This document shows positions 698-64,000 of a DNA stretch of 64,000 nt, one piece after another. Location of the stretch: the NCBI GenBank assembly GCA_028708815.1, contig JAQVYB010000004.1:660-64659 (forward strand), given 5' to 3'. The notes under the pieces are model-generated. The model had not been told where the DNA came from. It made no database searches and was given only the letters and a program-made list of their open reading frames with translations. The DNA is from Kiritimatiellia bacterium (GTDB lineage: Bacteria > Verrucomicrobiota > Kiritimatiellia > RZYC01). The stretch's first letter is position 1. Every line of letters begins with the position of its first letter. The position numbers were made by a program, and so were the translations under genes.

Positions 698-740
698 TTT
701 CACCTATAATCGGCATTCAAGCTGATCAGGAGGATGACTC

Positions 741-4787: not shown

Positions 4788-4854
4788 CCCACCCCTCATT
4801 CAGGCAAACCGCAACAGCCAACCGCTTACCGAGTGGATAGAAAACAGACGCCAC

Positions 4855-25293: not shown

Positions 25294-26538
25294 TCAGCGT
25301 ATTTCGGCGAAGAGGGGTGGACCGGCGGGAGGAGGCTGGTCATCGCCGGCAGCGATGGGGAGTTCCACGATAAACCGCGCGCCGCCCGTGTCGCTGTTTT
25401 CAGCCCGTATTTTCCCGAGATGATCCTGAATAATTCCCCGACTGATGGAGAGGCCCAGCCCGGTCCCCTCCTCCGATGGTTTAGTGGTATAGAACGCCTC
25501 CCAAATAACATCCAGCTTATCCTGCGGAATCCCCGGCCCGTTATCCTCCACCACAATCCGCAACATCTCTGCATCGGCTTCTCCGCGAATATGCAAGAGG
25601 CCGCGGCGGGCCTTTCGCTGCGGCTCCATGGCCTGCGCGGCATTGTGAAACAGATTGATGAAGACCTGTTCAATCTGTCGGGAAATGCCGGCAAAACAAG
25701 GCAGATTCTCCGGAAGATCCAGCTTCACCTCGGCCACATACTTCAGCTCATTACTGCACAGCTTCAGGGCATCGCTGATGCACGGGCCAAGAGCACAGTG
25801 CTGTTTCTCTTCCGCATCCCGACGCGAAAAGTTTTTCATGGATTTCATGATGCCGGTCACCCGCTCAACGCCTTCGCTCATCGTGGTCATGAAGTTCTGC
25901 GCATTGCGCAGAAAGCTCAACATATCCTCCGTGGCTTCGGCCTGGCCCTCCACGGCCTGTATCAGCGAGGGGAAGCACGTATCCAACTCACGCTGCATCA
26001 TCTCCGCTGAGAGGGAGATGTAGGCCAGCGGATTGTTGATTTCGTGGACGATCCCGGCGGAGAGCGAACCGAGGGTAGCGAGCCGTTCGGCATGAATGAG
26101 CTGTTGCGCACGCGCCTCGGCCAGGGCTTCCAGATGATCGCGGTGTTTTTTCAGTTCCATCTGCATCTGTACCCGGGCGCGCACCACCGCCGGGCTGAAC
26201 GGCTTGGTGATGTAATCCACTGCACCAAGCTCAAATCCACGCGTTTCATCTTCTTCGTCGCTGAGCACGGTGATGAAAATCACGGGAATGGCCGCGGTTC
26301 GGGCGTTCGCTTTGAAGTTCGCGCAGGCTTCATAGCCGCTCATCACCGGCATCTGCACATCCATCAGGATCAGGTCCGGACACTTTTCTCCCGCCGCGCG
26401 TTCCAGTGCTTCGCGTCCGTTTTTGGCAATAATCAGATCGCAAAAGTCCTGCAGTGTTTCGATCAGAATGGCCAGGTTGGCGGGTTCATCATCCACCAGC
26501 AGCACCACAGGATTTTCTTCAACTGGATTCATAAGCAA
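25294..26538 (-). CDS. Hybrid response regulator / histidine kinase (REC-HisKA-HATPase_c)
   Basis: N-terminal receiver (VLLVDDEP...[10 protein letters not shown]), HisKA H-box (HEINNPLAYI), HATPase_c G-boxes (DNGPGI, GTGLGLSIS). Confidence 0.85.
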   Translation of the reverse strand: MLMNPVEENPVVLLVDDEPANLAILIETLQDFCDLIIAKNGREALERAAGEKCPDLILMDVQMPVMSGYEACANFKANARTAAIPVIFITVLSDEEDETRGFELGAVDYITKPFSPAVVRARVQMQMELKKHRDHLEALAEARAQQLIHAERLATLGSLSAGIVHEINNPLAYISLSAEMMQRELDTCFPSLIQAVEGQAEATEDMLSFLRNAQNFMTTMSEGVERVTGIMKSMKNFSRRDAEEKQHCALGPCISDALKLCSNELKYVAEVKLDLPENLPCFAGISRQIEQVFINLFHNAAQAMEPQRKARRGLLHIRGEADAEMLRIVVEDNGPGIPQDKLDVIWEAFYTTKPSEEGTGLGLSISRGIIQDHLGKIRAENSDTGGARFIVELPIAAGDDQPPPAGPPLFAEIR

Positions 26539-26547
26539 CTCCCTGCG

Positions 26548-29500: not shown

Positions 29501-29898
29501 CCATAGGCCTGCTGCCAGGTTTCCAGAATCTCGCCGGGGGTGGTGCGATCCCGTTCCGGAAACACGACATCAAATGCCACCACAGCAGCACCCGCCGCCC
29601 AGAGATGATCCACCATTCGCGCGACCTGATAACGCGGCCAGGGCCACTGCCCCGTGGAACGGATGCTTTCGTTGTCGATATCAACAATCACCACTTTTCC
29701 GCTTTGCGGGGGCGAGGCCATCAGGCGCGTCATGGTATCATAGGATTGGAGCGAAACCGCCCGAAGAAAGCGCGGGTTCATGATGGCAATCAGCATGCAC
29801 AGCAGCAAAACCGCTACGCCGGCCACGATCGCGGGCAATCCACGCTCCTGACGAAATCCCGCTTCGGCCACTGGTTTCTTTTCCTTTGTTCGGGTCAC
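26548..29898 (-). CDS. CHASE2-domain hybrid sensor histidine kinase (CHASE2-TM-HisKA-HATPase_c-REC-HPt)
   Basis: CHASE2-like region ([19 protein letters not shown]), multiple TM helices, H-box [17 protein letters not shown], HATPase_c, receiver ([12 protein letters not shown]), C-terminal HPt ([11 protein letters not shown]). Confidence 0.85.
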
Positions 29899-47656: not shown

Positions 47657-47715
47657 ATGGTCCCCGTCCCTGTTTACTCTTTTTGCGCGGGCCAAGCCCG
47701 CAATCAGCACACGCC

Positions 47716-49590
47716 TTACGATTGCTCCAGAAACCGTCGGTGCCAGATGGCGGTGTGAATCAGCCCCCACAGCACATGGTTGTGATTATGCTTCATGGCG
47801 AGATGCTCGTCAATCAGTTGATTCACATAGGGCAGGTTCATGTTCTCACGAATGACGGGCGACTCATTGAGCAGACTGATCATAAAACCCTTGAGTTGGG
47901 TGCGCAGGAAATTTTTGACCGGCAGGCTGTAGCCCTGTTTTCCCCGGTAAATAATCGAATTCGGGAGCATGCCTTCGAGCGCCTTGCGGAAGATATACTT
48001 CGTCTGCATACCCTTGAGCTTCCAGTCACCCGGCAGGAGCGCGAGATATTCGAGCAGACGATGATCCAGCAGCGGCACCCGTATCTCAAGGGAATTGGCC
48101 ATGCTCATGCGGTCCACCTTCATCAGCACGCTGTCGGTCATCTGATAGCGCGTATCCAGATACGCCTCCCGATTCACCCGGTCGCGGGTGCGACATTTGA
48201 GATCATACTCATGCAGCCGCGCAAAACCATCCAGATTCACGTCGCCGCGAAACGACTCATTGAAGAGCGCCGCATCCTGCCGCGCGTTCGAAAAATACTG
48301 CCAACGAAGGTGCCGTCCCTCTTCGGGCAGACAGGATCCCTCGATGAACCGCTTCAGCATGTTGATGGCGCCCTTCTTCTGCGGCTGATCCGGAAGCAGC
48401 CCGACCAACCCCGAAATCACCGGCTGACGCAGCGGTCTCGGCAGCAGGCTGTACCAACTGTTCATCTTACTGGCCTTGAAACGGTCGTAGCCCACGAACA
48501 CCTCGTCGCCGCCCTCCCCGCTCAGACACACCGTAATATCCTTCTTCGCCTCCTGACAAATCAGCATCAGCGGAATCGAGGAAAGGTCCGTCATGGGTTC
48601 ATCAAAGTGCCAAAGCGATTTTTCGATCAGCTCCTCGGTCATCTCATCAATCATCAGCACATGATGTTCGGTTCCGAACTGATCGGCAACGATCTGCGCA
48701 TATTCCAACTCGCTGAACGTCTTGTCTTGGTAACCAATGGTAAAGGTACGCAGCGGCCCGGTCACATGACGGCGCATCATGGCCACAATGGTGCTGGAGT
48801 CCAGCCCGCCGGAAAGAAAGGCGCCCAACGGCACATCGGAGACCAACTGACTGCGCACCGCATCATCCAGCAGCCCGCGAATCCGCTCAATCGCCTCTCC
48901 CTCGGTAATATCCCGCGACGGCTCTTCCGGAAATTCCAGATCCCAATACTCCCGAATTTCCGTCTTGCCGCCGCGACGGATCAGATAGTGCCCCGCCGGA
49001 AGCTTCATAATATGCCGAAACATCGTTTCCGGCGCCGGCACAAATTCGCACCCAATGTAGGCAAAGAGCGCCTGCCGGTTCAGCTCGCGCGGCACGCACG
49101 GCGCCTCCAGCATGGCCTTGATTTCCGAGCCGAACACAAACCGCCCATCCCGCTCATAATAATAAACCGGCTTCACCCCGATATGATCACGCGCCATCAG
49201 AAAAGTCCCGCTCCGCGCATCCCAAATCGCAAACGCAAAAATGCCGCGCAGCTTCGGAATAATTTCTTCGCCGTATTCCTCATAGCCATGCACAATCACT
49301 TCGGTATCGCTGTGGCTGGCGAACACATGCCCCTTGCCAACCAGCTCCTCGCGCAGCTCCTGAAAATTATAGATCTCCCCGTTGAAGACAATCTGCACCG
49401 AGCCATCCTCATTGCCCATGGGTTGGCGCCCGTGTTCGCTCAGGTCAATGATGCTGAGCCGACGATGCGCAAAACTCCAATCCCCGCAGGCAAACACGCC
49501 CTCCTGATCCGGCCCCCGGTGCGCAATCGTCAACGCCATCCGACGCGCCAGTTCCGCATCATTCCAATTAAACCCGCAAATCCCGCACAT
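47716..49590 (-). CDS. asnB: Asparagine synthase (glutamine-hydrolysing) family amidotransferase
   Basis: N-terminal Ntn Cys (MCGICGF), glutaminase domain, PP-loop SGGLDSS in synthetase domain; 624 aa. Confidence 0.9.
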   Translation of the reverse strand: MCGICGFNWNDAELARRMALTIAHRGPDQEGVFACGDWSFAHRRLSIIDLSEHGRQPMGNEDGSVQIVFNGEIYNFQELREELVGKGHVFASHSDTEVIVHGYEEYGEEIIPKLRGIFAFAIWDARSGTFLMARDHIGVKPVYYYERDGRFVFGSEIKAMLEAPCVPRELNRQALFAYIGCEFVPAPETMFRHIMKLPAGHYLIRRGGKTEIREYWDLEFPEEPSRDITEGEAIERIRGLLDDAVRSQLVSDVPLGAFLSGGLDSSTIVAMMRRHVTGPLRTFTIGYQDKTFSELEYAQIVADQFGTEHHVLMIDEMTEELIEKSLWHFDEPMTDLSSIPLMLICQEAKKDITVCLSGEGGDEVFVGYDRFKASKMNSWYSLLPRPLRQPVISGLVGLLPDQPQKKGAINMLKRFIEGSCLPEEGRHLRWQYFSNARQDAALFNESFRGDVNLDGFARLHEYDLKCRTRDRVNREAYLDTRYQMTDSVLMKVDRMSMANSLEIRVPLLDHRLLEYLALLPGDWKLKGMQTKYIFRKALEGMLPNSIIYRGKQGYSLPVKNFLRTQLKGFMISLLNESPVIRENMNLPYVNQLIDEHLAMKHNHNHVLWGLIHTAIWHRRFLEQS

Positions 49591-49665
49591 AACCCATTCC
49601 CATCCTTTTTACTCAGCCCGACGAATTCCAACATTTCCAAGCAGTGGAAAGGTATTTCCCAGTTT

Positions 49666-49774
49666 TTCCAATCATTGGAAAGTTTTTTCCCGGTTTTTCC
49701 AATCATTGGAAACTTTTTTCCCGGGTTTTCCAATCATTGGAAACTTTTTGTTTCGTAATTTCCACGGATTGGAA
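49666..49774. repeat. Three to four copies of the TTCCAATCATTGGAA inverted-repeat element at 31-bp phasing
   Basis: Cores at 49666, 49697 and 49728 (31-bp spacing) plus a degenerate copy TTCCACGGATTGGAA at 49760 and half-site remnants at 49626-49650; located in the divergent asnB / STAS-gene intergenic region. Confidence 0.85.
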
Positions 49775-49806: not shown

Positions 49807-50130
49807 GTGAAGCTCGACCTGGTACATAAGAACAGCGGCGTAATTCTGCGTGTGGACGGTGCGCTGGACCATGCCACCGCACAGAAATTCGCCAAGAAAT
49901 GCTACGAGCTGCTCTCCCTGAATGCCGCCAAAATCGCCATTGATTTGCGCAAGGCTGATTTTGTGGGCAGCGCGAGCGTCTGCACGATTGTGGCGGTCGG
50001 GAAAAAAATTCAGGCCCGCCAGGGGGAATATTATCTCTCCCTCAGCAGTCCGGCGGAACAGGCCTTGGAATTCAGCGGTTTTAAATCCGTCTTTTCCATT
50101 GTGGACGATCCGGAGGCCGTCATTGATTAA
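49807..50130 (+). CDS. STAS-domain anti-sigma-factor antagonist (RsbV/SpoIIAA-like)
   Basis: STAS fold with conserved phosphorylatable Ser context (DFVGSASVCTIV); GTG start. Confidence 0.8.
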   Translation: MKLDLVHKNSGVILRVDGALDHATAQKFAKKCYELLSLNAAKIAIDLRKADFVGSASVCTIVAVGKKIQARQGEYYLSLSSPAEQALEFSGFKSVFSIVDDPEAVID

Positions 50131-50551
50131 CCGGCTGAATGAGTTCAACTTCATACCGATTCCAGCGGATGAAAAAGCCCTGGAAACCGCACGCCAATTC
50201 GTGCTCGAACAGGCCGAGCGCCTGAACCTGCCCGCGCCCATCATTTTCAAAATCGAACTGGCTCTGGAGGAAATTCTCGTCAATGTGGTTCATTATGCCT
50301 ATCCGCCCGGAACAACCGGCGTGGTGGATGTCGGCTGCCTGACGGATGAAGCCGGCATCTCCCTGTGTATTGCCGACAGCGGTCGCCCCTTCAACCCTCT
50401 CGAAAAGGAAAAACCCGATTTGGACATCGAACTCGAAGAGCGGCAAATCGGCGGGTTGGGCATTTTTCTGACACGCGAGATGGTGGATGCCATCGAGTAC
50501 CGCCGGGAGCAGGACCGCAACATCATCACCTTCACCATCCGCAAACCCTAG
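50123..50551 (+). CDS. Anti-sigma regulatory factor Ser/Thr kinase (RsbW/SpoIIAB-like GHKL ATPase)
   Basis: HATPase_c N-box (ELALEEILVNVVHYAY) and G-boxes (DSGRPFNP, GGLGIFL); likely TTG start at 50123 overlapping the STAS stop by 8 nt, RBS CGGAGG. Confidence 0.7.
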   Translation: MINRLNEFNFIPIPADEKALETARQFVLEQAERLNLPAPIIFKIELALEEILVNVVHYAYPPGTTGVVDVGCLTDEAGISLCIADSGRPFNPLEKEKPDLDIELEERQIGGLGIFLTREMVDAIEYRREQDRNIITFTIRKP

Positions 50552-50675
50552 CAATCCGGTGGTCGTTCGGTGTTTTCATACACGACCACACAGCTCTGCG
50601 CTAATGACTTCGACCTGCTCCAACCCGTGATAGCGTCCGTTTAAAAAAACGCCGGGGACACGAACCCGCCTGAAC

Positions 50676-51857
50676 TCACACAAACCGAATACGCATCATC
50701 GAGAAATCGTCCTCCAGATATTCCGCCGCGTGCATGGCAAACACATGCCGATGCAACTCGTCAATCACGCCGGCTTGTTCGCCGAGTGCCGCGCAGCGTT
50801 CGATCAGAAATTCGGTCAGTCCCTCCAGCGACCACATGGTTCCATCGCTCATGGAAACCTCGTAGACGCCATCCGAAAAGACAAACAACGACGCACCCTT
50901 CGGCACGGGGGTCTCCGCCGTGACATACACCATGTCAGGCATGCCGCCCACGATCATGCCGGGCGTCTTCAACTCCTCCGCCTTCCCTTCTGAAATCAGC
51001 AGAGAGGGCGGATGCCCGCCCGATGAATAACGCAGCACTGCCGTTTTCACGTCATACACCCCATACCACATGGTGAAATACAAATCGTTGTTCTTTTCCA
51101 TCTGAAAGGTGTCATTCATCGCAACCAGCACCGCCGACGGATCCAGAAAATCCACCTGCGGCAGACTTTGCGACCGCAGCACATTGATCGCGGAAACAGA
51201 AAGCAGCGCCGGCCCGACCCCATGATCGCACACATCGAGCAAATAAATCGCCAGATGGTCGGCATCCACCCAGTGATAGCCGAATGAATCCCCACCCAGA
51301 CGCGCCGACGGGATATACGTCCATTCCGTCCGCAATCCCTTTTCATCCATGGGCGCAGGCAGGATCGACATAACGTAATCCGCCGCAATCGCCAATTCCT
51401 CCGCCAGCTTTTCCTGGCTTGCCTTTAAGGCATCATAGGCCTCATTGCGCTCCAACAGATTGATATAGCCCTTGGAGTGATAACGTATGCGTGCCACCAG
51501 CTCGAGGCGGTCGGGCAGCTTCACCAGATAATCGTTCGCGCCCGCCGCAAAGGCATCCGCCTTTGTCTTCGGCTCCTCCTTGGTTGAAAGCACAATCAGC
51601 GGAACTTCCTTCAGCGCAGAATGACCCCGGAAAAAGCGTACCAAGGTCATCCCGTCAATCTCCGGCATCACCAAATCCTGCAGGATAACCGTTGGATTGA
51701 ATTCGGCGGCCAGGGTGAGCGCCTGCGCGGGATCCTGACAATGAATAAACTGAATATCCTGCTCCGGGGCCAGCATGCGCCGCACCTGCTCGCCGACAAT
51801 CGCCTGATCATCCACCAGAAATACCCGGATATCGTGATGCTGCAATTCGTTGATCAT
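50676..51857 (-). CDS. Response-regulator receiver fused to PP2C-type (SpoIIE/RsbU-like) phosphatase
   Basis: REC domain (VFLVDDQ...VILQDLVMPEIDG...K) followed by a PP2C/SpoIIE domain with metal-binding Asp residues (GGDSFGY, DVCDHGVG, FVFSDGVYE). Confidence 0.85.
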   Translation of the reverse strand: MINELQHHDIRVFLVDDQAIVGEQVRRMLAPEQDIQFIHCQDPAQALTLAAEFNPTVILQDLVMPEIDGMTLVRFFRGHSALKEVPLIVLSTKEEPKTKADAFAAGANDYLVKLPDRLELVARIRYHSKGYINLLERNEAYDALKASQEKLAEELAIAADYVMSILPAPMDEKGLRTEWTYIPSARLGGDSFGYHWVDADHLAIYLLDVCDHGVGPALLSVSAINVLRSQSLPQVDFLDPSAVLVAMNDTFQMEKNNDLYFTMWYGVYDVKTAVLRYSSGGHPPSLLISEGKAEELKTPGMIVGGMPDMVYVTAETPVPKGASLFVFSDGVYEVSMSDGTMWSLEGLTEFLIERCAALGEQAGVIDELHRHVFAMHAAEYLEDDFSMMRIRFV

Positions 51858-54445: not shown

Positions 54446-56044
54446 CTACAAACGAATGCCCATCACCAGCACGTCGTCAATCTGCGCCTGGGAACCACGC
54501 CATTCCTCGAAGGACTGATTCAGCAGGCGGGCTTGCTCATCCATACTTTTTCCAGAGATCTTCTGCAGCAGAGACAAAAATCCCGAACGCATCAGTTTTT
54601 TTCTTTCCGGGCCGCCAAACTGATCCTGGAATCCATCCGTGGCCAGATAGAACACATCGCCGCGTTTGGCAGGAAAGAGCTGCACATCGAATGGGACAGT
54701 ACGCCTTCGGGCCCGTTCGCCAATGGCGCGGGGCGTCCCTTTGACGAGGCGAACAGCCCCCGCATCCAAACGATACAACGGCAACCGGGCCCCGGCATAG
54801 CGCAGGGTTTCGGCGTGTGCATCCAGCACACATACAGCCATCTCCATGCCTTCCTGCAACCCCCGCTCACCTTCGACATTCAGCAATCGCTTCAACCGCT
54901 CATCCACCTGCTCCAGAATTTTGCCCGGATCATCGGATTGCTCCTCATTCACCACATGATGAAGCACTTCATTGCCCAGCAGCGTCATGAAAGCCCCCGG
55001 CACGCCGTGCCCCGTACAATCCGCACACACCACCACCTGCCGTCCGGATACCTGGCCGAACCAGTAGAAATCGCCACTCACAATGTCACGCGGACGCAGA
55101 TAAATCATGGCATCGGGAAATTGCCGTATAATGCGCCGGGTATCGGCCAGAATACCGTTCTGAATACGCTGCGCGCAGTGGATGCTGTCGGTGATTTCCC
55201 GGTTTTTATGCGCGGACTTCTGTTGCGACGCCTCGGCCTGAATCCGCGCCTCATCCAGCGCCGCATTCATTTTCCGCTGTGCGGTGACGTCAATCAGCAC
55301 CCCGTTGAAAATCACTTCGTCCTCGGTGATTTCACCGGGACGGCTCAAATCCCGTATCCAGCGGATTTTCCCGTCGGCACCGGTCAGCGAACGTTCAAAG
55401 GACCAATCCACCGAGGCATCAGCGGCACTCCGCAAGGCCTCCTCCCATTGGGCGCCTCCTCGCGCGGGCAGCCGGGGCACATGCCAGGACGCCTTCAACT
55501 GCTCGGTCGATTGCTGAAGCAACTCCTCGCAGCGCGGACTCATGTAGCGATAGCCGCATTCCCCGTTGGATCGCTCGTACCACTGATAAATCACCCCCGG
55601 TACATTAGCCGCCATGGACTGAAAGCGCTCCTCCTGCCGGCGCAGATCGCGTTCCAGTGTTTTCCGCTTCGTGATGTCGCGCAGCAGCAACAGATGGCAG
55701 GCCTGCCCAAACCAGGGCAGCGGTCCCTTGCGGATTTCCAGTATGCGCGATTCCCCTTTTTCATTCTGCACGGTGATTTCGGTGGTGGCGGAACAGGCCT
55801 CCGGCGCCATGAAAAGGTGCCCCATCAACTTCCGCCCGGACCGATGCAGCAATTCCGGCGCGGCACGATTCACATACAGCACGATTCCGCTCCGGTTGAC
55901 GATGACCATGCCATCCACACTATGCCCATGCAGCGCCTTCACCAGGGCGTGCTCACGACGGTACAAACGCAACAGGACCGATAAAACCAGCGCGGCAATC
56001 AACCCGCAGAGAAGCAGCCACGCCATAGGCACTTCCACCATCAT
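54446..56044 (-). CDS. Membrane-anchored PAS-domain PP2C-type Ser/Thr phosphatase (SiaA/RsbU-like)
   Basis: N-terminal TM helix, two PAS-like segments, C-terminal SpoIIE/PP2C domain (SGDFYWF, DCTGHGV, LATDGF); ATG overlaps upstream HK stop (ATGATGG). Confidence 0.8.
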   Translation of the reverse strand: MMVEVPMAWLLLCGLIAALVLSVLLRLYRREHALVKALHGHSVDGMVIVNRSGIVLYVNRAAPELLHRSGRKLMGHLFMAPEACSATTEITVQNEKGESRILEIRKGPLPWFGQACHLLLLRDITKRKTLERDLRRQEERFQSMAANVPGVIYQWYERSNGECGYRYMSPRCEELLQQSTEQLKASWHVPRLPARGGAQWEEALRSAADASVDWSFERSLTGADGKIRWIRDLSRPGEITEDEVIFNGVLIDVTAQRKMNAALDEARIQAEASQQKSAHKNREITDSIHCAQRIQNGILADTRRIIRQFPDAMIYLRPRDIVSGDFYWFGQVSGRQVVVCADCTGHGVPGAFMTLLGNEVLHHVVNEEQSDDPGKILEQVDERLKRLLNVEGERGLQEGMEMAVCVLDAHAETLRYAGARLPLYRLDAGAVRLVKGTPRAIGERARRRTVPFDVQLFPAKRGDVFYLATDGFQDQFGGPERKKLMRSGFLSLLQKISGKSMDEQARLLNQSFEEWRGSQAQIDDVLVMGIRL

Positions 56045-57453
56045 GGAGTCGCCGCTCCGGGCTGTCGAAGCCCACGCCGAATCGCCGACGCCAGTTTTTC
56101 ACGATTGATCGGTTTGGCCACATAGTCATTCAGGCCATGCCGACGGCACAGGGCAATGAACTCGTCCCCGGCGTGAGCCGTCATGGCAACGATCGGAATC
56201 GCAGAACACCCGCCGGACGCCTCATCCGCCCGGACAAAATCCGCGACCGTCAATCCATCCACCTTCGGCATCTGCACATCCAGCAAAAGCAAATCATACG
56301 GCACCGGGCAACCATCCGGCATCCGTTTTCCGGCGGCATCAAGCCCCAGTTTCGCCAGCGCCTCCTCCCCGTCGCCGACCAGATCATGGGCATAACCCAG
56401 GCGCTTCAGCAGCAGAGAAATCACCTTCTGGTTCACGGCATTATCCTCCGCCACCAACAGGCGAAACGCCCCCGAATGCGGCGCTTCATCGAGCGAACCG
56501 TGCTCGGCGCAAGTATCGGTTTTCCGGGGTTCATCAACGGAATGATCTTCCGCCACCAACACCGTAAACCAGAAGTCGGAGCCGTGACCCTCCTCGCTGC
56601 TCAACCCCATTTTACCACCCATCAAGCCGGCAAGGCGCTTGCAGATCGAAAGGCCAAGTCCTGTTCCTCCGAAAATTCGAGAGGTGGATTCATCGGCCTG
56701 AGAGAACGGCTCAAACAGCTGCTTCTGGCGCTCAGCCGGGATGCCGATGCCCGTATCCCGAACATGAAAGATCAGATGAATCGCCTCCGGGCCGGAGGGA
56801 CGTGCGCCGACGGTCAACCGCACCTCGCCCGCCGGGGTGAACTTCACCGCATTGGAAAGCAGGTTCAACAGGATCTGTCGAATGCGCCCCGCATCGGCAC
56901 GCACCCGGATCGGTACGGCGGAATCCACCTCGGCCGCGAGGTGCAGGCCCGACTCTTCGGCGCGCGGCTTCATCAAACGAATCACTGACGCAACCATTTC
57001 GTGCAAATCAAAGGGCCGCACTTCGACATCCATTTTACCCGCCTCGATTTTGGCCAGGTCCAACGCTTCATTGATTAAATCCAGCAGAAGATGCCCGGAC
57101 GAAAGAATATCCTCCACCCATTCCCGCTGCATCTCCTGGAGACCCGATTCCTTCAGCAGGTCCGTCAGGCCGAGTATCCCGTTCAACGGCGTACGCAATT
57201 CGTGACTCATGCCCGCCACAAAGGCGCTTTTCGCCTCCGTGGCTTTCTTCAGGGCCTGCTGCGCGGTCAGGAGTTTGTTCTGGATGGCATCGCTGATGTG
57301 CACCAACTTGTCTGAGATATCCACGAGACACGCATAGTGCTGAAGCAAACCCAGATAATCTTCGACCGTGATTTTCCCGCTGCGCGCCAGTGCACGCGCC
57401 TTGGCCACATGCTCGTGGTCCTGAAAAAACAGGCTGATTCGCTCCTCGTGCAT
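56041..57453 (-). CDS. Soluble hybrid histidine kinase lacking a sensor domain (coiled-coil-HisKA-HATPase_c-REC)
   Basis: H-box FVAGMSHELRTPLNGILG, HATPase_c (DTGIGI, GGTGLGLSI), receiver (LLLDVQMPKVDG); no TM or sensor domain; start chosen at ATG 57453 (alternative 57474). Confidence 0.8.
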   Translation of the reverse strand: MHEERISLFFQDHEHVAKARALARSGKITVEDYLGLLQHYACLVDISDKLVHISDAIQNKLLTAQQALKKATEAKSAFVAGMSHELRTPLNGILGLTDLLKESGLQEMQREWVEDILSSGHLLLDLINEALDLAKIEAGKMDVEVRPFDLHEMVASVIRLMKPRAEESGLHLAAEVDSAVPIRVRADAGRIRQILLNLLSNAVKFTPAGEVRLTVGARPSGPEAIHLIFHVRDTGIGIPAERQKQLFEPFSQADESTSRIFGGTGLGLSICKRLAGLMGGKMGLSSEEGHGSDFWFTVLVAEDHSVDEPRKTDTCAEHGSLDEAPHSGAFRLLVAEDNAVNQKVISLLLKRLGYAHDLVGDGEEALAKLGLDAAGKRMPDGCPVPYDLLLLDVQMPKVDGLTVADFVRADEASGGCSAIPIVAMTAHAGDEFIALCRRHGLNDYVAKPINREKLASAIRRGLRQPGAATP

Positions 57454-57460
57454 AAACGGC

Positions 57461-57844
57461 CTACGCTTCCTCATCCATTACCAGATGAAATGGAAAAGAG
57501 ACGCCATCGGCCAGCTCCTTTCCGCTTTCGAGCAGATCCTCATCGCCCTCGGCATAATGCCACCAAAGCATGACCGAAGCACCCTGGCGGGCGTACTCAT
57601 CCAACCGTTCCACCACATCCAGCAGACACTTGGACGAGCTTGAATTAAAATACGAGAGCGACACCTCCACCTTCAGCGGACGATGCCTGCCATCCATATA
57701 TTCATCCAACCACTGAAACACCGGACGGAAAAATTCCACCGCATTTTCCGGATAACATTCTCCGGTCAACCGCATGGCGCCGCTGTCTGCGCTCAGCAGA
57801 ACGCCGGGAGTGGATACACCGGATTCCAGATTCAGCTCATTCAT
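57461..57844 (-). CDS. DUF1987 / SiaC-like partner-switching phosphoprotein
   Basis: Pattern ECYPENAVEFF...LSYFNSSSSKCLLDVVERL...WWHY...FPF closely resembles the SiaC family; ATG 57844 with GGGAG RBS (ORF-track start 57862 is TTG). Confidence 0.75.
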   Translation of the reverse strand: MNELNLESGVSTPGVLLSADSGAMRLTGECYPENAVEFFRPVFQWLDEYMDGRHRPLKVEVSLSYFNSSSSKCLLDVVERLDEYARQGASVMLWWHYAEGDEDLLESGKELADGVSFPFHLVMDEEA

Positions 57845-58391
57845 GGTCGGCTCCCGTCTCAAGAATGGCGGTAATCACCACAAAATCATACCGGTCACTC
57901 ACGGTTTCGAAATTCACATAAAAACGCCCGCCGGTTTTAACGGCCAATTCGGCCAGGCCCAATCCGGCGTGCGGGCCGTGGCGCGGCGCCTTTCGCTGCC
58001 GGTCCTGACGCCGCTTCCGCTCTTCCGCCTCACACGAAGTCCACCAGTCAACCTGCTCCGCCAGGCGCAACGATTCATCCCGAAGAATCAGATTGCCTGA
58101 CTGCACCTTAATTCGGCCCTCCTCTTCGCTGATTTCCATCATCCCCACCCCGCACGGCGTTCCGCCTTCCCCGGCATCCGCCTTTTCCGCGGAATGATGC
58201 AGAACATTCTGGGCCATTTCCACAAAAACGGCCTGCAACCGCCCCGCATAAAGCTTCTTCGGCCCCCACTGCTCCTTGATCGTCTGCGCCAGGCGCTCAA
58301 TCAAAGGCTGGGAAACCACGGTTTTAAAAGTGATCAGCATCCGGTTGTGTCCGGACCGCGTATACACCCGATGCATGCGCTTCGTATCCAC
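57837..58391 (-). CDS. SiaB-like GHKL-type protein kinase (anti-sigma-factor-like)
   Basis: N-terminal MLITFKTVVSQPLIERLAQTI...VFVEMAQNVLHHS resembles SiaB; C-terminal region with GLGLAEL G-box-like motif; start GTG 58391 or ATG 58376. Confidence 0.65.
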   Translation of the reverse strand: MDTKRMHRVYTRSGHNRMLITFKTVVSQPLIERLAQTIKEQWGPKKLYAGRLQAVFVEMAQNVLHHSAEKADAGEGGTPCGVGMMEISEEEGRIKVQSGNLILRDESLRLAEQVDWWTSCEAEERKRRQDRQRKAPRHGPHAGLGLAELAVKTGGRFYVNFETVSDRYDFVVITAILETGADHE

Positions 58392-58531: not shown

Positions 58532-59299
58532 TTATTTCATCCGCGCAATCGTGTACGGGGATTTCCAGGCGAAGCAAAGATTCATGGCCCAGCGAATGAG
58601 GGCGGGCAGGGCGTTTTCCATCGTCTCGGGCTTCAGTCCGCCCGATTCGATGGCACGCGCCATACGGACGCCGAGAGCACGGGCCTCTTCGAGCTGAGTC
58701 ATACTCAAGCGGCGCAGGGTATAGAGGCGTTTCCAGTCGCGATCGTTTTCCGGGAGACGCTCCAACTCGGCGGCGGCATACATATCGCCGATCCACTGCC
58801 CATTCAATTCGAGCGGAGTATTGCTCTTCATCCAGCGGGTCCCGTCATCGCAGAACCGACGCAACAGGCCGGGGATTCCGCCCGCCGTAACAATCGAGGC
58901 CAGCGCACGCACCTTGTCGCCCAGACGCGTTTCCAGGTTGAAGCAGTGATTGAGCGGCGGACCGGGGCGCATCGCACGCCAGGCCAGACGATCCATGAAC
59001 GTGGTCATCAGGCTGGTCACAAATCCGCAGTGAACGGACGAGGCAAAGCAGACGCCATCCGCCGATACTATCTCCGCAAGAACCGCATCCATGTCGTCCT
59101 GCAAACTGCACGGCGCGACCCCCTCGCCTTCATACGCATAACAGTGGAGGCAATTCGTGCAATGGGCAATGTGTTTCTCGCGCAGCAGGATCAAATTCGT
59201 TTCGGCACCGAGAGACTGCGCGCCTTCGATAAAGGCGCGGACGAGTTGCGTGGTCGTCCCCTCGGCACGCGGACTTCCATGAATTACGAGTATCTTCAT
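58532..59299 (-). CDS. Flavodoxin-like fold NAD(P)H-dependent FMN reductase / iron-sulfur flavoprotein family
   Basis: MKILVIHGSPRAEGTT flavodoxin-like N-terminus, Cys cluster CTNCLHC; start at ATG 59299 (the long ORF-track N-terminal extension has no support). Confidence 0.65.
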   Translation of the reverse strand: MKILVIHGSPRAEGTTTQLVRAFIEGAQSLGAETNLILLREKHIAHCTNCLHCYAYEGEGVAPCSLQDDMDAVLAEIVSADGVCFASSVHCGFVTSLMTTFMDRLAWRAMRPGPPLNHCFNLETRLGDKVRALASIVTAGGIPGLLRRFCDDGTRWMKSNTPLELNGQWIGDMYAAAELERLPENDRDWKRLYTLRRLSMTQLEEARALGVRMARAIESGGLKPETMENALPALIRWAMNLCFAWKSPYTIARMK

Positions 59300-59649
59300 C
59301 GCGTTCCTTTCCCGTTTTCCAACGATCCGGCCATCTGCCGAACATTGGATACAGCCACAACCGATTGAGGCGATCCGCAATAACGGCCGGGCCGCAACCA
59401 ACTTCAAATGAAACCACGCAATAGTATACCGTCCGCCCCGCCCAACGAAAAGAGAGATTCCCTCTGAATATTCCGATCCACACGTCCCGCTGTAATGCCT
59501 TTCCTGCCGGCGGAAAACACCCATACCACCCTCACCGCAACCGCCGAAGGCCCGTATTTCTACCGCGTTCTCGTAGAATAATTTCATTTTTTACAAGCCT
59601 TGCCCACCCCTGATACGATAGGCTTCCACCGAGTCTAGGGGTGAAAAGC

Positions 59650-62600
59650 ATGATGCAGGGCGACAACCAACTCAACCGGGATCCGGCGGATCGGGAACGA
59701 AAGAGAATTTCGAACCCACCCATCCTTAGCCCACCCCGAATTCGCATCGTCCGCTTCGGCCTGCTTTGCACCGCTTTGCTACTGGCCGGCATGCTGCTCT
59801 CAATCTGGTCGGTGCGCGAGTCGCTCGATGAAATGCACAAGGACATGCGCAATCAGATCGGACTGGTGATGGAAACCGCCAATCGAAACCTGTTTCAGAA
59901 GGCCCTGAAGCAGAACATGGACCCTCAATCCAAGATCGGACAACGCATCCTTGCCACCGGGAAAATGCTGCGCATGGCAAATCCGGACTGGCTTTCCCTC
60001 TTTGTCGTTGGACGCCTGCACGATGGCACCCCGTATTCCGTGGCAGACGAGAGTGGCCTCGCCACCAACCAACCCGTGCCAACCGCCTGGATGGAAGCCT
60101 TTGACCGCAACGAATCGCGCCTCTCCCTCCGTGCCGCCGACGCGCTGCTCGGCAGGCCCGCCACCATGCTGATCCCCCTCGGCGATGCAAACCGTCACAC
60201 GCCGCTCGCCCTGATCGGCGTAACATTTGACACACACGAATGGCATCCACGCCTGCTGCGCAACATGCTCATCCCCCCCGCCGCCATGCTGGCGCTTATC
60301 CTGATTCTTGCACTCGGGCGCACCCTTCTACCCCGTTGCGAAGATCCCGCACGCCGTAAATACAAACGCCTGATTGTTCTGGTCAATACGTCCGCCTGCG
60401 GTCTCATCCTCACCCTTCTGCTCGCCTTTTTCATCTACGAACAGGAACGCCAAACCCAACGCGACATCTTCACTCACCTGGCCAATTCAAAGACCTTCTC
60501 CGTGTTGCAAACCATACGCAATCTCCGCGACTTCGAGATGAAAAGCCTGGTCTCCTTTTTTGAAAACAGCGAGCACATCGCCCGCGACGAATTCACCGCT
60601 TACGCTGAATTCCTCGGCATTGAAAAAGCCGTATGGGCCTGGGCCTGGGCGCCCGCCGTAAACCAAACCGAAAAAGAGCGCTTCGAACAGGACGTGCGCA
60701 AGGCCGACGACAGGCCCGACTTCCACATCTGGGAACGCGACGAAACCGGCCAACCCATCCCCGTCCGACCCCGCGAAATCTATTATCCCGTGCGCTATCT
60801 TATCCCCGCCGCAACCAATCAGATACCGTATGGCTTCGACCTCGGTTCCGACCCCCGGCGCAGGGAAGCCCTGGAAACCGCCCTGCAAAGCAGGCTCATC
60901 GCCGCCACCGCACCCATCCCCCTCCTCATCGGCGCCAACAACGAAACGGGCATCCTGCTGGTCCAGTCCGTCTTTCATCCAAACCAACCCAACGAGGCCA
61001 GAGGCGTTGTTACGGCGGCACTCCGGCCCGAAGCCCTGCTTATGGCACACATTCACGAAGCCACCGCACCCATCTACTCCTCCTCCATGGGAATGGCCCT
61101 TCACCAACTCCGCAACAATCAACCCCCACTCCTCCTCGCGGCATACCCGGACAACGCGCAATGGAAAACGCGTTATTCCCGCCACCCCGTCATCTCCCGC
61201 CCGATCTCCGCATTCAACAAATTATACACCGTCACCGCATACCCCACGGAAGACTATCTGCGCGCCAACCCCATCCTCTCCACCTGGTTCGTCCTCCTTG
61301 CAGGATTCGTCATGACCCTCTCCATCACCCTCGCCACCTATGCCATCGACCTCCGACGCGAAGAACTCGAATTCCTCGTGACCGAACAAACGGAAAGCCT
61401 GCGAAACAGCGAAGAAAAATTCCGACTCATCGCCGAAAACTCCAGCGATGTCATCTGGCAGATGGACCGCGACTACCGCCTCACTTACGTCAGCCCCGCC
61501 GACTTTAAACTGCGCGGCTTCTCCCCTGAAGAAACCATCGGACACTCCGCCTGGGAATTCCTCTCCCCCGAAAGCAACTCCCGGATACAGGCCACACGGG
61601 AAAAAAGCCTCGAGCACCTGCTCCTGGAAACCCCCGAAACCGTCCTGACCTTCGAACTCGAACAACTCCGAAAAGACGGCTCATCCATCTGGACCGAAGT
61701 CAGCATCACCCCCCTCTGCGACCACCACGGCACACGCATCGGATTCCAAGGCATCTCCCACGACATCTCCCGACGGAAACGGCAGGAACACTACCGCGAA
61801 TTGACCGTCACCGTTCTTCAGCTCCTCCACGCCACCCCCGACCTCCAGCAGGCCCTCCAGCATATCCTCGCCGAAATCAAACGCCACACCGCCTGTGATG
61901 CCGTCGGCATGCGCCTGCAACAGGGCGAAGACTTCCCCTACGCCACCCAGGACGGCTTCTCCCCCGAATTCCTCCGCACCGAAAACTCACTCATCACCCG
62001 CGGCCAACATAACGACATCTGCCGCAATCCCGACGGGACCCCGAACCTCGCCTGCACCTGCGGCCTCGTCCTCTCCGGAAAAACAGACCCCGCCAACCCC
62101 CTCTTCACCCCCGGCGGAAGCGCCTGGACCAACAACGCCTACCCCTTCCTCGAACTCCCCGAATCCGACGACCCGCGCAGCAAGCCCCGCAACAAATGCA
62201 TTCACAGCGGGTATGCATCCGTCGCCCTCATCCCCATCCGCAAACAGCAGCAAATCATCGGGCTCATTCAACTCAACAGCCGAAAAACCGGGCACTTCAG
62301 CCTGGATCTGATCCAGGCCCTCGAAAACATGGCCAATCACATCGGCGAAACCCTCGCCCAGCGCCAGGCCGAACAGGAAATCAAGGAAACCAACCGCCAA
62401 CTGGAAGCCGCCATAGAACGCGCCAACACCATGACCCTCCGCGCCGAAGCCGCCAACCAGACCAAATCCGAATTCCTCGCCAACATGAGCCACGAAATCC
62501 GGACCCCCATGAATGCCATTATTGGATTTGCCGATCTCCTCGCCACCTCCCTGCAAGACAAACGCGAACGAGAGCACGCCGCCATCATCCTGCAATCCGC

Positions 62601-63975
62601 ACGAGCCCTCCTCCACCTCATCAACGACATCCTCGACCTCTCCAAAATCGAAGCCGGAAAAATCAACCTCCAGCCCACAACCTTCTCCCTCTCCGAATTG
62701 CTCCGCGAAATGGCTTCTGTCTTCGCAAAAAAAATCGACGACAAACACCTATCCCTTCACCTCGAAATCACCCCGGACATACCCGACAGGCTCATCCTCG
62801 ACGCCACCCGCCTGCGGCAAATTCTCCTCAACCTGCTCGGCAATGCCGTTAAGTTCACCGAGACAGGCGATATTACCCTCGCCGCCTGCGCAACCCAACG
62901 GTCCGAACCTCATCGCTGCGACGTCACCCTCTCCGTGGCCGACACAGGAATCGGCATCCCCGATACGTTTAAAACGCTCCTCTTTGATCCCTTCGAGCAA
63001 CCACCCGGACAGGACCATGCCAAATACGGAGGGACCGGGCTCGGATTGGCCATCTCCCAACGCCTCGCCAAAATACTCGGTGGGCAGATCACGGTTGAAG
63101 ACAACCCCGCCGGTCAGGGCGCCCTCTTCACCCTTCACCTCCCCTCCGTACCTATTGCCCCTGAAGCCGACACCCCGAACGAGAACGAGAAAAAGGCCAA
63201 ACACATGGTCTTCAACCAACCCGCCACCCTCCTGATCGCCGCTGAAACAGAAACCGATCAACACCTACTGACCAGTTATCTCGAACCCTTTGGCTTCACC
63301 CTCTCTGCAACCACCAACGCCGCCCAACTCATCGAGCTGATCAGGCAACACCGACCCGCCCTGGTTCTGGCCGACATTCAAATCACTCAGACGCTCTCCC
63401 CAACCCAACTGAATCGTGCCTGCAAAGGCACGCCACCCAAAACACAACGCATTCCCCTCATCGCCATCACCGCAGCCGCCACGAATGGAGAACTCGAGGC
63501 TCTTCCCGCCATTTTCGATGCCATCCTGGTCAAGCCCATACTGCGGGAGGACCTCCTGCACGCCCTCGCCGCCTTTCTCCCCCACACCCTTCAGGAGTCA
63601 TGCCTCCTCCCCAAAGAGAACTCCTCCCCCGCGCCGAACACCCTCTCCGACGCCATCACCGAGCGCTCCGCTCTCCTGGAAAAACTCGCCGAACACTTCC
63701 CCGAACGCCTCGCCACGATACGCCGAACCCTCCGCATCAACCAGGTCAAGCCCCTCGCCACCGAACTCCGAGCCATCGCCGCCGAACACGGCGCGCACCG
63801 CATGCGTCTCTTGTGCGACGACCTCCTGCTCGCCGCCGAATCCTTCCGTATCGACCGCATGAAAAGCATTCTCCTCGACCTGGAAAACGATGTCGCCCGC
63901 CTGCAATGCGGTAAGGACCAAAAGCCATCTAACCAAACCGAAAAAAGTATCCTGCCGGAAAAGGATCCGTCATGA
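59650..63975 (+). CDS. Giant CHASE-domain hybrid sensor histidine kinase (TM-CHASE-TM-PAS-PAS-GAF-HisKA-HATPase_c-REC-HPt-like)
   Basis: CHASE-like periplasmic region ([22 protein letters not shown]...FHIWERDE...[10 protein letters not shown]...[15 protein letters not shown]), PAS segments, GAF-like segment, H-box [17 protein letters not shown], HATPase_c, receiver and C-terminal helical HPt-like region; ATG 59650 after an AGGGG RBS (GTG 59641 alternative). Confidence 0.85.
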
Positions 63976-64000
63976 ACCCACCTGAAAACCGACCCCTGCC
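63972..64000 (+). CDS. Start of an ORF translationally coupled to the sensor kinase (ATGA overlap); product unknown, truncated by window end
   Basis: ATG at 63972 overlaps the kinase stop codon; only 9 codons visible. Confidence 0.25.

What the first reader, a model, noticed from the sequence alone, without database searches (positions are those of the whole stretch)
54446..58391. SiaB/SiaC/SiaA-like partner-switching module wired to a sensor-less hybrid histidine kinase instead of a diguanylate cyclase
The minus-strand order is a SiaB-like GHKL kinase, a DUF1987 SiaC-like phosphoprotein, a soluble hybrid histidine kinase with only a short coiled-coil N-terminus and no sensor domain, then a TM-PAS-PP2C phosphatase (SiaA-like). 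Consecutive genes overlap or nearly abut, including an ATGATGG stop/start overlap. In the characterised Pseudomonas SiaABCD system, SiaC's partner is the GGDEF enzyme SiaD, and there is no GGDEF protein here. The obvious inference is that the SiaC-like protein gates the hybrid kinase, giving a phospho-Ser/Thr partner switch that feeds a His-Asp phosphorelay.
Basis: partly seen in the sequence, partly recalled or inferred. Interest (0 to 1): 0.7.

Follow-up and report, generated by a model that had tools for sequence, protein, structure and literature searches.

The report
Phospho-switch module wired to a histidine kinase
A four-gene operon pairs a SiaB/SiaC-type serine-phosphorylation switch with a sensor-less histidine kinase whose first 70 residues carry the docking helix that SiaC is known to bind on its usual partner. 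This suggests the switch turns a two-component kinase on or off, rather than a c-di-GMP synthase.

Summary
On the minus strand, 58391 to 54446, four abutting or overlapping genes encode a SiaB-family kinase, a SiaC-family phosphoprotein (Ser68 at the Thr68 phospho-site), a soluble hybrid histidine kinase, and a TM-PAS-PP2C phosphatase. The only solved relative of the phosphatase is SiaA. There is no GGDEF gene in the 64 kb.

The kinase N-terminus is not a generic coiled coil. It is homologous (hhalign 96.4%, E=1e-9) to a ~70-residue stalk domain found next to SiaC genes across phyla. A profile of that domain picks out P. aeruginosa SiaD as its only significant solved structure, at SiaD's two published SiaC-binding motifs (R-I-S-D-x-Y-Q). 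The kinase keeps the contact residues Ser, Asp and Gln (ISDAIQ). AlphaFold places them on one continuous helix with the phospho-His, 29 residues away.

In 80 surveyed SiaC loci the stalk is fused to:
- GGDEF domains (28 loci)
- class III cyclases (15)
- histidine kinases (16)
- PP2C domains (2)

Spacing from the motif to the catalytic domain is heptad-quantised. The arrangement is therefore a recurrent variant that I did not find described. No binding or phosphotransfer was tested, and the downstream Hpt protein and response regulator are unknown.

The parts
57837..58391 (-). SiaB-family Ser/Thr protein kinase (GHKL fold, DUF6272), 184 aa, GTG start with an AGGAG upstream
   Evidence: PF19788 at 70.8 bits. 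NF038262 at 92.3 bits, above its cut-off of 85. 6KKO_A SiaB E=2.6e-9 with the catalytic Glu/Asn and GLGL kept.
57461..57844 (-). SiaC-family regulatory phosphoprotein, 127 aa. The predicted phospho-acceptor Ser68 is the codon at 57641-57643. Its start overlaps the SiaB stop (ATGAATGA).
   Evidence: PF09345 at 123 bits. 6KKO_C E=8e-22 without gaps. Y65, N67, S69, S70 and K72 are invariant and S68 nearly invariant across 42 homologues.
56041..57453 (-). Soluble hybrid histidine kinase, 470 aa: stalk domain, then HisKA, HATPase_c and REC. His84 is the codon at 57202-57204 and the receiver Asp392 is at 56278-56280.
   Evidence: Pfam HisKA, HATPase_c and Response_reg. 100% identical to P0053. No TM segment and all catalytic boxes present. 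AlphaFold pLDDT 80.6.
57238..57435 (-). N-terminal SiaC-receiver stalk domain of the kinase (residues 7-72)
   Evidence: hhalign against 33 stalk domains of SiaC-adjacent DGCs, cyclases and kinases: Prob 96.4%, E=1.3e-9, 66 columns. No Pfam family matches this region.
57280..57297 (-). Putative SiaC-binding motif I-S-D-A-I-Q (residues 53-58), 29 residues before His84 on the same predicted helix (30-101)
   Evidence: It aligns to the R-I-S-D-x-Y-Q motifs of SiaD. With the short motif model alone the score is weak (11.4 bits, E=0.049), but it is the best hit in the window.
54446..56044 (-). Membrane-anchored PAS-PAS-PP2C phosphatase (SiaA-type catalytic domain), 532 aa. Its start overlaps the kinase stop (ATGA).
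   Evidence: SpoIIE at 73.7 bits plus PAS hits. NF038263 at 197 bits over positions 386-656 of 658, below its cut-off of 700. 6K4E SiaA E=1.2e-38. TM segment at about residues 7-27.
58532..59299 (-). FMN-reductase/flavodoxin-like gene 140 nt upstream on the same strand. It is a conserved neighbour, and whether it belongs to the module is uncertain.
   Evidence: PF03358. The same gene sits upstream in L001-L003.

Best explanation
This is a SiaB/SiaC-type partner switch whose output is a histidine kinase.

Proposed mechanism:
1. The membrane-anchored PAS-PP2C phosphatase removes the phosphate from Ser68 of the SiaC-like protein, and the SiaB-like kinase puts it back.
2. Unphosphorylated SiaC docks on the ISDAIQ motif of the dimeric N-terminal stalk of the sensor-less hybrid kinase.
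3. That motif lies on the same continuous helix as the phospho-accepting His84, four heptads plus one residue upstream. Docking therefore sets the conformation of the DHp helix and with it the autokinase/phosphatase balance.
4. Phosphorylation of Ser68 blocks docking.
5. The kinase then passes phosphate from His84 to its own Asp392, and on to an unidentified Hpt protein and response regulator.

Shown here:
- the identity of all four proteins
- the operon-like packing
- homology of the kinase N-terminus to the SiaC-docking stalk
- conservation of the contact residues
- helix continuity in the model
- heptad-quantised spacing

Inferred: binding itself, its sign (activation or inhibition), the signal sensed by the PAS domains, and the downstream partners.
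For: (1) Family assignments come.

(2) In PMC8457831, SiaC Thr68 inserts between the SiaD stalk helices and hydrogen-bonds S82 and Q86 of R-I-S-D-R-Y-Q. A second motif uses S50 and Q54. Phosphorylation of Thr68 abolishes binding.

(3) A motif model was seeded only from SiaC-adjacent DGCs and iterated once. It hits 73 of 2164 ORFs within 3.1 kb of a SiaC gene and 0 of 2100 farther away. Of 80 hit stretches, 73 start by residue 90 of the protein. It hits 20 of 37 histidine kinases, and none of the 17 without a hit lies directly next to a SiaC gene.

(4) The kinase N-terminus (residues 7-72) matches a 33-sequence stalk profile that excludes its own clade: hhalign Prob 96.4%, E=1.3e-9.

(5) That profile's only significant PDB hit is SiaD 7E6G_A (E=5e-6), at exactly the two published motifs.

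(6) The AlphaFold model shows a helix at 2-24, then one helix at 30-101 that holds both ISD/Q and His84.

(7) The distance from the motif Asp to the phospho-His is 29, 36, 36, 36, 43 (five times) and 50 in HisKA-type SiaC-linked kinases, all equal to 1 mod 7. In DGCs the distance from the motif Asp to DxLT is 20 (14 cases, plus L045 after hand correction) or 34 (4 cases).

(8) The same four-gene order occurs in an 87% relative without a GGDEF gene. Pfam confirms 10 other stalk-HisKA-HATPase partners.
Against: - The short motif model alone scores the window kinase weakly: 11.4 bits, E=0.049 against 4264 ORFs. The usual Arg before I-S-D is His here.
- The hhalign query has an effective depth of one sequence, because only two orthologues exist.
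- No Hpt domain or dedicated response regulator lies in or next to the operon, so the 'phosphorelay' half is incomplete.
- Co-transcription is inferred from spacing only, and the promoter/terminator scan was uninformative.
- The survey covers the 80 loci most similar to this SiaC out of 561 or more confirmed. It is not a random sample.
Confidence: 0.68

Rival explanations
1. The kinase is only a neighbour. The SiaC-like protein acts on an unlinked target elsewhere in the genome, such as a stalk-bearing diguanylate cyclase or nucleotide cyclase, and the kinase has an independent input.
For: Some SiaC loci show no adjacent stalk-bearing partner (17 of 80, several on truncated contigs). L004 and L005 have the partner 1-2 kb away or absent. 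The motif score of the window kinase is weak.
Against: No other ORF in the 64 kb matches the stalk model (next best E=1.3), and there is no GGDEF or class III cyclase in the window. The kinase gene is wedged between the SiaC and PP2C genes with a 7-nt gap and a 4-nt overlap. Its N-terminus is homologous to the stalk domain.
Confidence: 0.1
2. Signal flows the other way. The hybrid kinase, through its receiver or an interaction, controls the PP2C or the SiaB-like kinase, so that a His-Asp signal sets the phosphorylation state of SiaC, as in HptB-HsbR-HsbA.
For: Systems in which a phosphorelay feeds a partner switch are established (own knowledge: HptB-HsbR-HsbA). A REC-PP2C of that type lies 3 kb away at 50676-51857.
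Against: The operon's PP2C has PAS inputs and no receiver domain. The kinase has no sensor domain of its own, so it would have nothing to report. The docking motif sits on the kinase, not on the phosphatase.
Confidence: 0.1
3. The N-terminal similarity is a by-product of coiled-coil composition (a generic signalling helix) and does not mark a SiaC-binding site. The kinase is regulated in some other way, for example by the SiaB-like protein.
For: Coiled coils inflate profile scores. Identity in the hhalign match is only 23%.
Against: None of the 2100 ORFs far from SiaC, and none of the 17 other histidine kinases in the same DNA, hits the model. The invariant Asp and the Ser/Gln contact positions coincide with the crystallographic contacts. 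Heptad-locked spacing recurs in two enzyme classes.
Confidence: 0.07

Closest known systems
SiaABCD of Pseudomonas aeruginosa (PP2C SiaA, kinase SiaB, phosphoprotein SiaC, diguanylate cyclase SiaD; PMC7647112, PMC8457831)
   Same: - SiaB-family kinase and SiaC-family phosphoprotein with the same phospho-site position.
- SiaA-type PP2C catalytic domain.
- An output enzyme that starts with a small N-terminal domain plus a long stalk helix carrying an I-S-D-x-x-Q docking motif.
- Operon packing.
   Different: - The output is a hybrid histidine kinase (HisKA-HATPase-REC), not a GGDEF cyclase.
- There is one docking motif instead of two.
- The acceptor is Ser, not Thr.
- The phosphatase input is TM-PAS-PAS rather than SiaA's own N-terminal sensor region.
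- Gene order is B-C-output-A, not A-B-C-D.
- All three equivalog models score below their cut-offs.
RsbRST stressosome modules with variable outputs that carry the RsbU_N docking domain (Pane-Farre et al. 2005 as cited in PMC9237108; Vibrio vulnificus stressosome)
   Same: A Ser/Thr partner-switch module found next to alternative outputs (PP2C, GGDEF, two-component kinases). In some cases a portable N-terminal docking domain on the output marks it as the target.
   Different: - The protein families differ: STAS RsbR/RsbS and kinase RsbT versus DUF1987 and DUF6272.
- The docking partner there is the kinase RsbT, whereas here it is the phosphoprotein.
- That link to kinases is also only genomic, and binding of RsbT to VvD1 was not detected.
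Small-protein control of soluble histidine kinases: PII (GlnB)-NtrB, and Sda or KipI with KinA (own knowledge)
   Same: A sensor-less cytoplasmic kinase whose activity is set by a small protein binding at or near the DHp helices. For PII the small protein's state is set by a reversible covalent modification made by dedicated enzymes.
   Different: The folds and modification chemistry are unrelated (uridylylation versus Ser phosphorylation). No N-terminal stalk docking motif is involved.
Classical RsbU/RsbV/RsbW and HsbR/HsbA partner switches
   Same: The logic of PP2C plus GHKL Ser kinase plus a small alpha/beta phosphoprotein. SiaC is structurally STAS-like (PMC8457831).
   Different: In those systems the output is sequestered by the kinase (a sigma factor) or bound by the STAS protein. 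No sigma factor is present here. Pfam STAS and HATPase_c_2 do not match these two proteins. A separate classical module of that kind lies at 49807-51857.

Membership tests
SiaC family (PF09345 / DUF1987) | Profile match above the Pfam gathering score | tested here: met
   123.1 bits against a cut-off of 24.5, covering profile positions 4-118 of 120.
SiaC family (PF09345 / DUF1987) | Phosphorylatable residue at the position of P. aeruginosa Thr68, within the Y-x-N-T/S-S-S motif | tested here: met
   Gap-free alignment to 6KKO_C places Ser68 at Thr68. Y65, N67 and S69 are invariant in 42 homologues.
SiaC orthologue (NCBIfam equivalog NF038265) | Score at or above the curated cut-off of 150 | tested here: not met
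   102.2 bits. It is a family member but not an equivalog.
SiaB family protein kinase (NF038262) | Score at or above the curated cut-off of 85, with catalytic Glu/Asn and the G-box | tested here: met
   92.3 bits. E58, N62 and GLGL align to SiaB E61 and its N and G boxes. The equivalog NF038264 is not met (53.8 against 225).
SiaA phosphatase (NF038263 equivalog) | Full-length match at or above 700 bits, including SiaA's N-terminal sensor region | tested here: not met
   197.2 bits, covering only profile positions 386-656 of 658. The PP2C domain itself is SiaA-type (6K4E E=1.2e-38, metal-binding Asp/Gly motifs kept).
SiaABCD system | A GGDEF diguanylate cyclase (SiaD) as the SiaC-regulated output | tested here: not met
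   No GGDEF in the operon or in the 64 kb, and none in relative L001 within the 8-kb flanks fetched.
SiaABCD system | An output protein that carries the SiaC-binding stalk motif (R-I-S-D-x-Y-Q, with Ser and Gln contacting SiaC residue 68) | tested here: met
   ISDAIQ at kinase residues 53-58. hhalign Prob 96.4% to the stalk profile, whose only significant PDB hit is the pair of SiaD motifs. The short-motif score alone is weak (E=0.049).
SiaABCD system | Physical, phosphorylation-sensitive binding of SiaC to the output | not testable with these tools
This needs multimer prediction or biochemistry.
Hybrid histidine kinase (HisKA class) | H-box His, N/G1/G2 ATP-binding boxes, and a receiver domain with acidic pocket, Asp, Thr and Lys | tested here: met
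   HisKA 76.2, HATPase_c 105.8 and Response_reg 66.7 bits. SHELRTP, LLSNAVKFT, DTGIGI and GGTGLGL are present, along with D392, T425 and K447.
Complete His-Asp-His-Asp phosphorelay | An Hpt domain and a terminal response regulator linked to the kinase | tested here: not met
   No Hpt in the kinase or in the C-terminus of the divergent CHASE kinase. The nearest Hpt is inside an unrelated CHASE2 kinase at 26548-29898.

The most novel reading that the evidence does not exclude
The ~70-residue N-terminal stalk is a portable 'SiaC-receiver' domain. By fusion at heptad-exact distances, it lets one Ser/Thr phospho-switch gate any dimeric, helix-driven signalling enzyme: diguanylate cyclases, class III adenylate/guanylate cyclases (including a conserved Leptospira operon), PP2C phosphatases and histidine kinases. 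In this Kiritimatiellae genome it makes an otherwise input-less hybrid kinase a slave of a PAS-PP2C sensor. That would be a direct, undescribed bridge from Ser phosphorylation to His-Asp signalling.
Probability: 0.55. Interest if true: 0.75.

Novelty: new variant of a known kind. Interest (0 to 1): 0.62.

Why it matters
SiaC/DUF1987 proteins are widespread, but only one partner, a diguanylate cyclase in Pseudomonas, has been studied. The authors of that work only guessed that family members 'modulate adjacent proteins'.

The present evidence gives a concrete, testable rule. The partner is whichever neighbouring protein starts with the stalk domain, and the docking motif sits at a heptad-locked distance from the catalytic domain.

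For two-component signalling, this offers a natural example of a histidine kinase whose whole input is a phospho-regulated accessory protein acting on the helix that carries the phospho-His. Such a system is a clean model for how helix register controls kinase output. It also flags cAMP/cGMP cyclase versions in Leptospira.

Everything here is sequence-based. The value lies in making the experiments obvious.

Tried and rejected
- A search of the 5.8-billion-protein collection with the stalk alignment returned one hit. A short domain cannot reach E<=0.001 at that database size, so the search was wasted.
- The metagenome scan with the stalk alignment failed for lack of a conserved stretch. With the kinase N-terminus alone it found only the already known JGI contig.
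- The promoter/terminator scan gave no more than the shuffled expectation.
- The search for an Hpt domain near the operon was negative.
- My in-house GGDEF model gave a false hit on an antisense ORF at 26680-29271, because that ORF had entered the seed set through a regex. Pfam rejected it. I then verified 10 DGC and 10 kinase partners with Pfam.
- I considered that the GGDEF gene had simply been lost here. I rejected this because relatives keep the kinase and because the kinase itself carries the docking domain.
- I considered that the kinase N-terminus was a generic coiled coil. I rejected this on the specificity controls.
- Literature searches found no report of a SiaC-kinase or SiaC-cyclase link. 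The library does not cover most subscription journals.

Full report
**What is in the sequence.**

On the minus strand, four ORFs run from 58391 to 54446.
- The first (57837-58391, 184 aa) matches Pfam DUF6272. It also matches the NCBIfam model 'SiaB family protein kinase' at 92.3 bits, above its cut-off of 85. It aligns to P. aeruginosa SiaB (6KKO_A, E=2.6e-9) with the catalytic Glu, the Asn and the GLGL box in place.
- The second matches Pfam SiaC/DUF1987 at 123 bits. It aligns without a gap to P. aeruginosa SiaC (6KKO_C, E=8e-22). Ser68 lies at the position of the phospho-acceptor Thr68, inside YFNSSSSK, a stretch that is almost invariant in 42 homologues. Its probable start is the ATG at 57844 (127 aa).
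- The third is a hybrid histidine kinase with HisKA, HATPase_c and a receiver domain. All catalytic boxes are present and there is no hydrophobic segment. From the ATG at 57453 it is 470 aa and identical to a protein of a Kiritimatiellae MAG (P0053).
- The fourth (54446-56044) has one N-terminal membrane helix, PAS domains and a PP2C domain. The only solved relative of that domain is SiaA (6K4E, E=1.2e-38), and the metal-binding motifs are kept.

The junctions are an 8-nt overlap (ATGAATGA), a 7-nt gap and a 4-nt overlap (ATGA). No GGDEF protein is encoded anywhere in the 64 kb.

**Relatives and context.**

Only two close orthologues of the SiaC-like protein (P0001 99%, P0002 87%) and two of the kinase (P0053 100%, P0054 86%) exist in the large protein collection. 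The 87% relative (L001) has the same order: FMN-reductase-like gene, SiaB, SiaC, hybrid kinase, PAS-PP2C. It also has a divergent CHASE-PAS-GAF kinase upstream, and no GGDEF gene within the 8-kb flanks fetched.

I then fetched 80 SiaC loci, drawn from a collection with one genome per species. These were the best 80 of at least 561 confirmed matches, so they are not a random sample. I mapped domains around each with models built in the sandbox. Many loci have the canonical PP2C-SiaB-SiaC-GGDEF order. Others have a short, sensor-less histidine kinase directly after SiaC (for example L048, L062, L035, L053, L009). Some have hybrid kinases (L075, L079, L068, L070). Others have no recognisable output at first sight, including all Leptospira loci.

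**The key result: a shared docking domain.**

The structure paper on SiaC-SiaD (PMC8457831, read) shows that SiaC binds two near-identical motifs on the SiaD stalk helix. Thr68 of SiaC inserts between the two stalk helices and hydrogen-bonds S82 and Q86 (S50 and Q54 in the other motif). The residues named spell R-I-S-D-R-Y-Q.

The N-termini of the SiaC-adjacent kinases and cyclases in my loci all contain this motif. A model built only from the motif in SiaC-adjacent DGCs, iterated once, gave the following results:
- It hit 73 of 2164 ORFs lying within 3.1 kb of a SiaC gene.
- It hit none of 2100 ORFs farther away.
- Of 80 hit stretches, 73 start by residue 90 of the protein.
- It hit 20 of the 37 histidine kinases in this DNA.

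The hits that had no domain label turned out to be class III nucleotide cyclases, in Leptospira with a GAF domain between stalk and cyclase. Counting every locus with a stalk-bearing protein of each class, so that mixed loci count in each class, the stalk-bearing partner in the 80 loci is:

| Partner | Loci |
|---|---|
| GGDEF protein | 28 |
| Class III cyclase | 15 |
| Histidine kinase | 16 |
| PP2C | 2 |
| Stalk-only protein of about 107-170 aa (no other partner) | 5 |
| None found (several contigs truncated) | 17 |

Pfam confirmed ten DGC and ten kinase partners.

**Does the window's kinase carry the domain?**

With the 32-residue motif model alone the score is weak: 11.4 bits, E=0.049 against 4264 ORFs. 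It is nevertheless the best hit in the whole window, with the next at E=1.3.

The full N-terminal domain gives a clear answer. An alignment of 33 stalk domains from kinases, DGCs, cyclases, stalk-only proteins and one PP2C, none from the window's clade, has the consensus LFxxE..L..A..L, then a loop, then L...Y.KLL.Q..K.TR.GD..Q.KL. Profile-profile comparison with the window clade gives probability 96.4% and E=1.3e-9 over 66 columns, covering kinase residues 7-72. ISDAIQNKL falls on the motif.

Run against all solved structures, the same profile finds SiaD (7E6G_A, E=5e-6) as its only significant hit. It matches in two stretches that are exactly the two published SiaC-binding motifs. The kinase keeps Ser54, Asp55 and Gln58, while the usual Arg before them is His. 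Pfam has no family for this region.

**Geometry.**

The AlphaFold model of the kinase (pLDDT 80.6) has a helix at 2-24, a short loop, and then one uninterrupted helix from 30 to 101. That helix contains both the docking motif and His84. There is no sensor domain.

Across SiaC-linked HisKA-type kinases the distance from the motif Asp to the phospho-His is 29 (window), 36, 36, 36, 43 (five cases) and 50. All equal 1 mod 7. One exception is a weak-motif fusion protein (L066, distance 54). Kinases with two other H-box types give 45, 45 and 52, all equal to 3 mod 7.

In DGCs the distance from the motif Asp to the DxLT start of the GGDEF domain is 20 in 14 cases and 34 in 4. L045 also gives 20 after a hand correction. 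Spacing that changes only by whole heptads is what one expects if the docking site and the catalytic domain are coupled through a rigid coiled coil.

**Most likely mechanism.**

The PAS-PP2C phosphatase, responding to an unknown cytoplasmic or membrane-proximal cue, and the SiaB-like kinase set the phosphorylation state of SiaC Ser68. Unphosphorylated SiaC binds the dimeric stalk of the kinase at ISDAIQ and alters the DHp helix that carries His84. Phospho-SiaC cannot bind.

The kinase then phosphorylates its own receiver (Asp392) and, through an unidentified Hpt protein, a response regulator. By analogy with SiaD the effect may be activation through stabilising the stalk dimer, but the sign is not known.

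The family assignments, the docking-domain homology, the helix continuity and the heptad rule are shown here. Binding, the sign of regulation, the signal and the downstream partners are inferred.

**Rivals.**

- The kinase is a bystander and SiaC acts on an unlinked target. This is unlikely, because no other ORF in 64 kb carries the stalk and the kinase gene sits between the SiaC and PP2C genes.
- Signal flows from the kinase into the switch. This is unlikely, because the PP2C has PAS domains and no receiver, and the kinase has no input of its own.
- The similarity is coiled-coil noise. This is contradicted by the 0-of-2100 control, by the 17 other kinases without a hit, and by the coincidence with the crystallographic contacts.

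**Comparison with what is known.**

The system works like SiaABCD but is not an orthologue of it. The three equivalog models score below their cut-offs, the output is not a GGDEF protein, the phosphatase shares only the PP2C part, and the gene order differs.

The idea that a partner-switch module can be plugged into different outputs through a portable docking domain is known for the stressosome (RsbRST with RsbU_N on PP2C, GGDEF and two-component proteins; PMC9237108). That involves other protein families, and the link to kinases is likewise only genomic.

Functionally the nearest analogy is PII-NtrB (own knowledge). The SiaD structure paper only suggests that DUF1987 proteins 'modulate the activity of adjacent proteins'. 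I found no paper describing a SiaC-kinase or SiaC-cyclase link. The searchable library is incomplete.

**Verdict.**

This is a real feature, correctly read by the first stage. It is a new variant of a known kind rather than a new kind. It is not unique to this genome: kinase-linked SiaBC modules occur in several phyla, and in a rough neighbour-joining tree they arise at seven or more separate places.

Its interest lies in the general rule that emerges, a portable SiaC-receiver stalk with heptad-locked spacing, and in the simple experiments that would test it.

Noticed in passing
window 49807-51857: A second, classical partner-switch set lies about 3 kb from the operon. It comprises a STAS protein (49807-50130, +), an RsbW-like HATPase_c_2 kinase (within 49922-50551, +, true start unclear) and a convergent REC-SpoIIE phosphatase (50676-51857, -). 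The receiver-PP2C is a conceivable acceptor for the hybrid kinase's phosphate, but it is absent from the 16-kb stretch fetched for relative L001.
   Followed up: partly
L019, L022 (L. interrogans), L023, L025, L031, L032, L015, L017, L037, L051: Leptospira and Leptospiraceae loci share a conserved operon: a giant SpoIIE protein of about 1780 aa, then SiaB, SiaC, and a stalk-GAF-class III cyclase of about 481-493 aa. This predicts SiaC control of cAMP/cGMP synthesis in this genus. Pfam was checked only for L015, L031 and L051.
   Followed up: partly
L074:7408-7731, L050:2550-2870, L011:7640-7963, L030:7391-7732, L035:2409-2735: Stand-alone proteins of about 106-113 aa consist of the stalk domain only. 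They lie directly after SiaC, mostly in Bacteroidales MAGs. They could be adaptors or decoys.
   Followed up: no
L066:3994-6987 (Desulfosudis oleivorans MAG): A single 997-aa ORF combines stalk, histidine-kinase core, two receivers and a C-terminal SiaB-family domain. It is followed by SiaC and a stalk-GGDEF protein. It is the one kinase that breaks the heptad rule (distance 54).
   Followed up: no
L047:2726-4378 (Clostridium magnum): The stalk domain is fused to a CheA-like protein (Hpt plus HATPase_c, no HisKA), 2.6 kb upstream of a SiaB-SiaC-stalk-GGDEF set.
   Followed up: partly
L004:4718-5998, L005:4775-5962; L007:7410-8354: Two tandem DUF6272 (SiaB-family) paralogues lie upstream of one SiaC. 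In L007 the in-house models see an apparent SiaB-SiaC fusion ORF next to a separate SiaC.
   Followed up: no
window 58532-59299 and L001-L003: An FMN-reductase/flavodoxin-like gene lies 140 nt upstream of the SiaB-like gene on the same strand, and is conserved in all relatives of the operon. This hints at a possible redox link to the PAS-PP2C sensor.
   Followed up: no
window 726-4799, 47683-49758 and elsewhere; 59500-64000: Very long antisense ORFs shadow real genes. For example, a 691-aa ORF lies opposite the asparagine synthase gene, and 1348-aa and 1357-aa ORFs lie on both strands at 726-4799. The + strand has a strongly negative GC skew (to -0.36) over the CHASE kinase gene. Naive ORF calling is misleading here.
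   Followed up: partly
window 25294-29898 and 59641-63975: The window is rich in orphan-looking hybrid kinases. These are CHASE2-HisKA-HATPase-REC-Hpt (26548-29898, -), REC-HisKA-HATPase (25294-26538, -) and CHASE-PAS-GAF-HisKA-HATPase-REC with an unassigned 135-residue C-terminus (59641-63975, +).
   Followed up: partly
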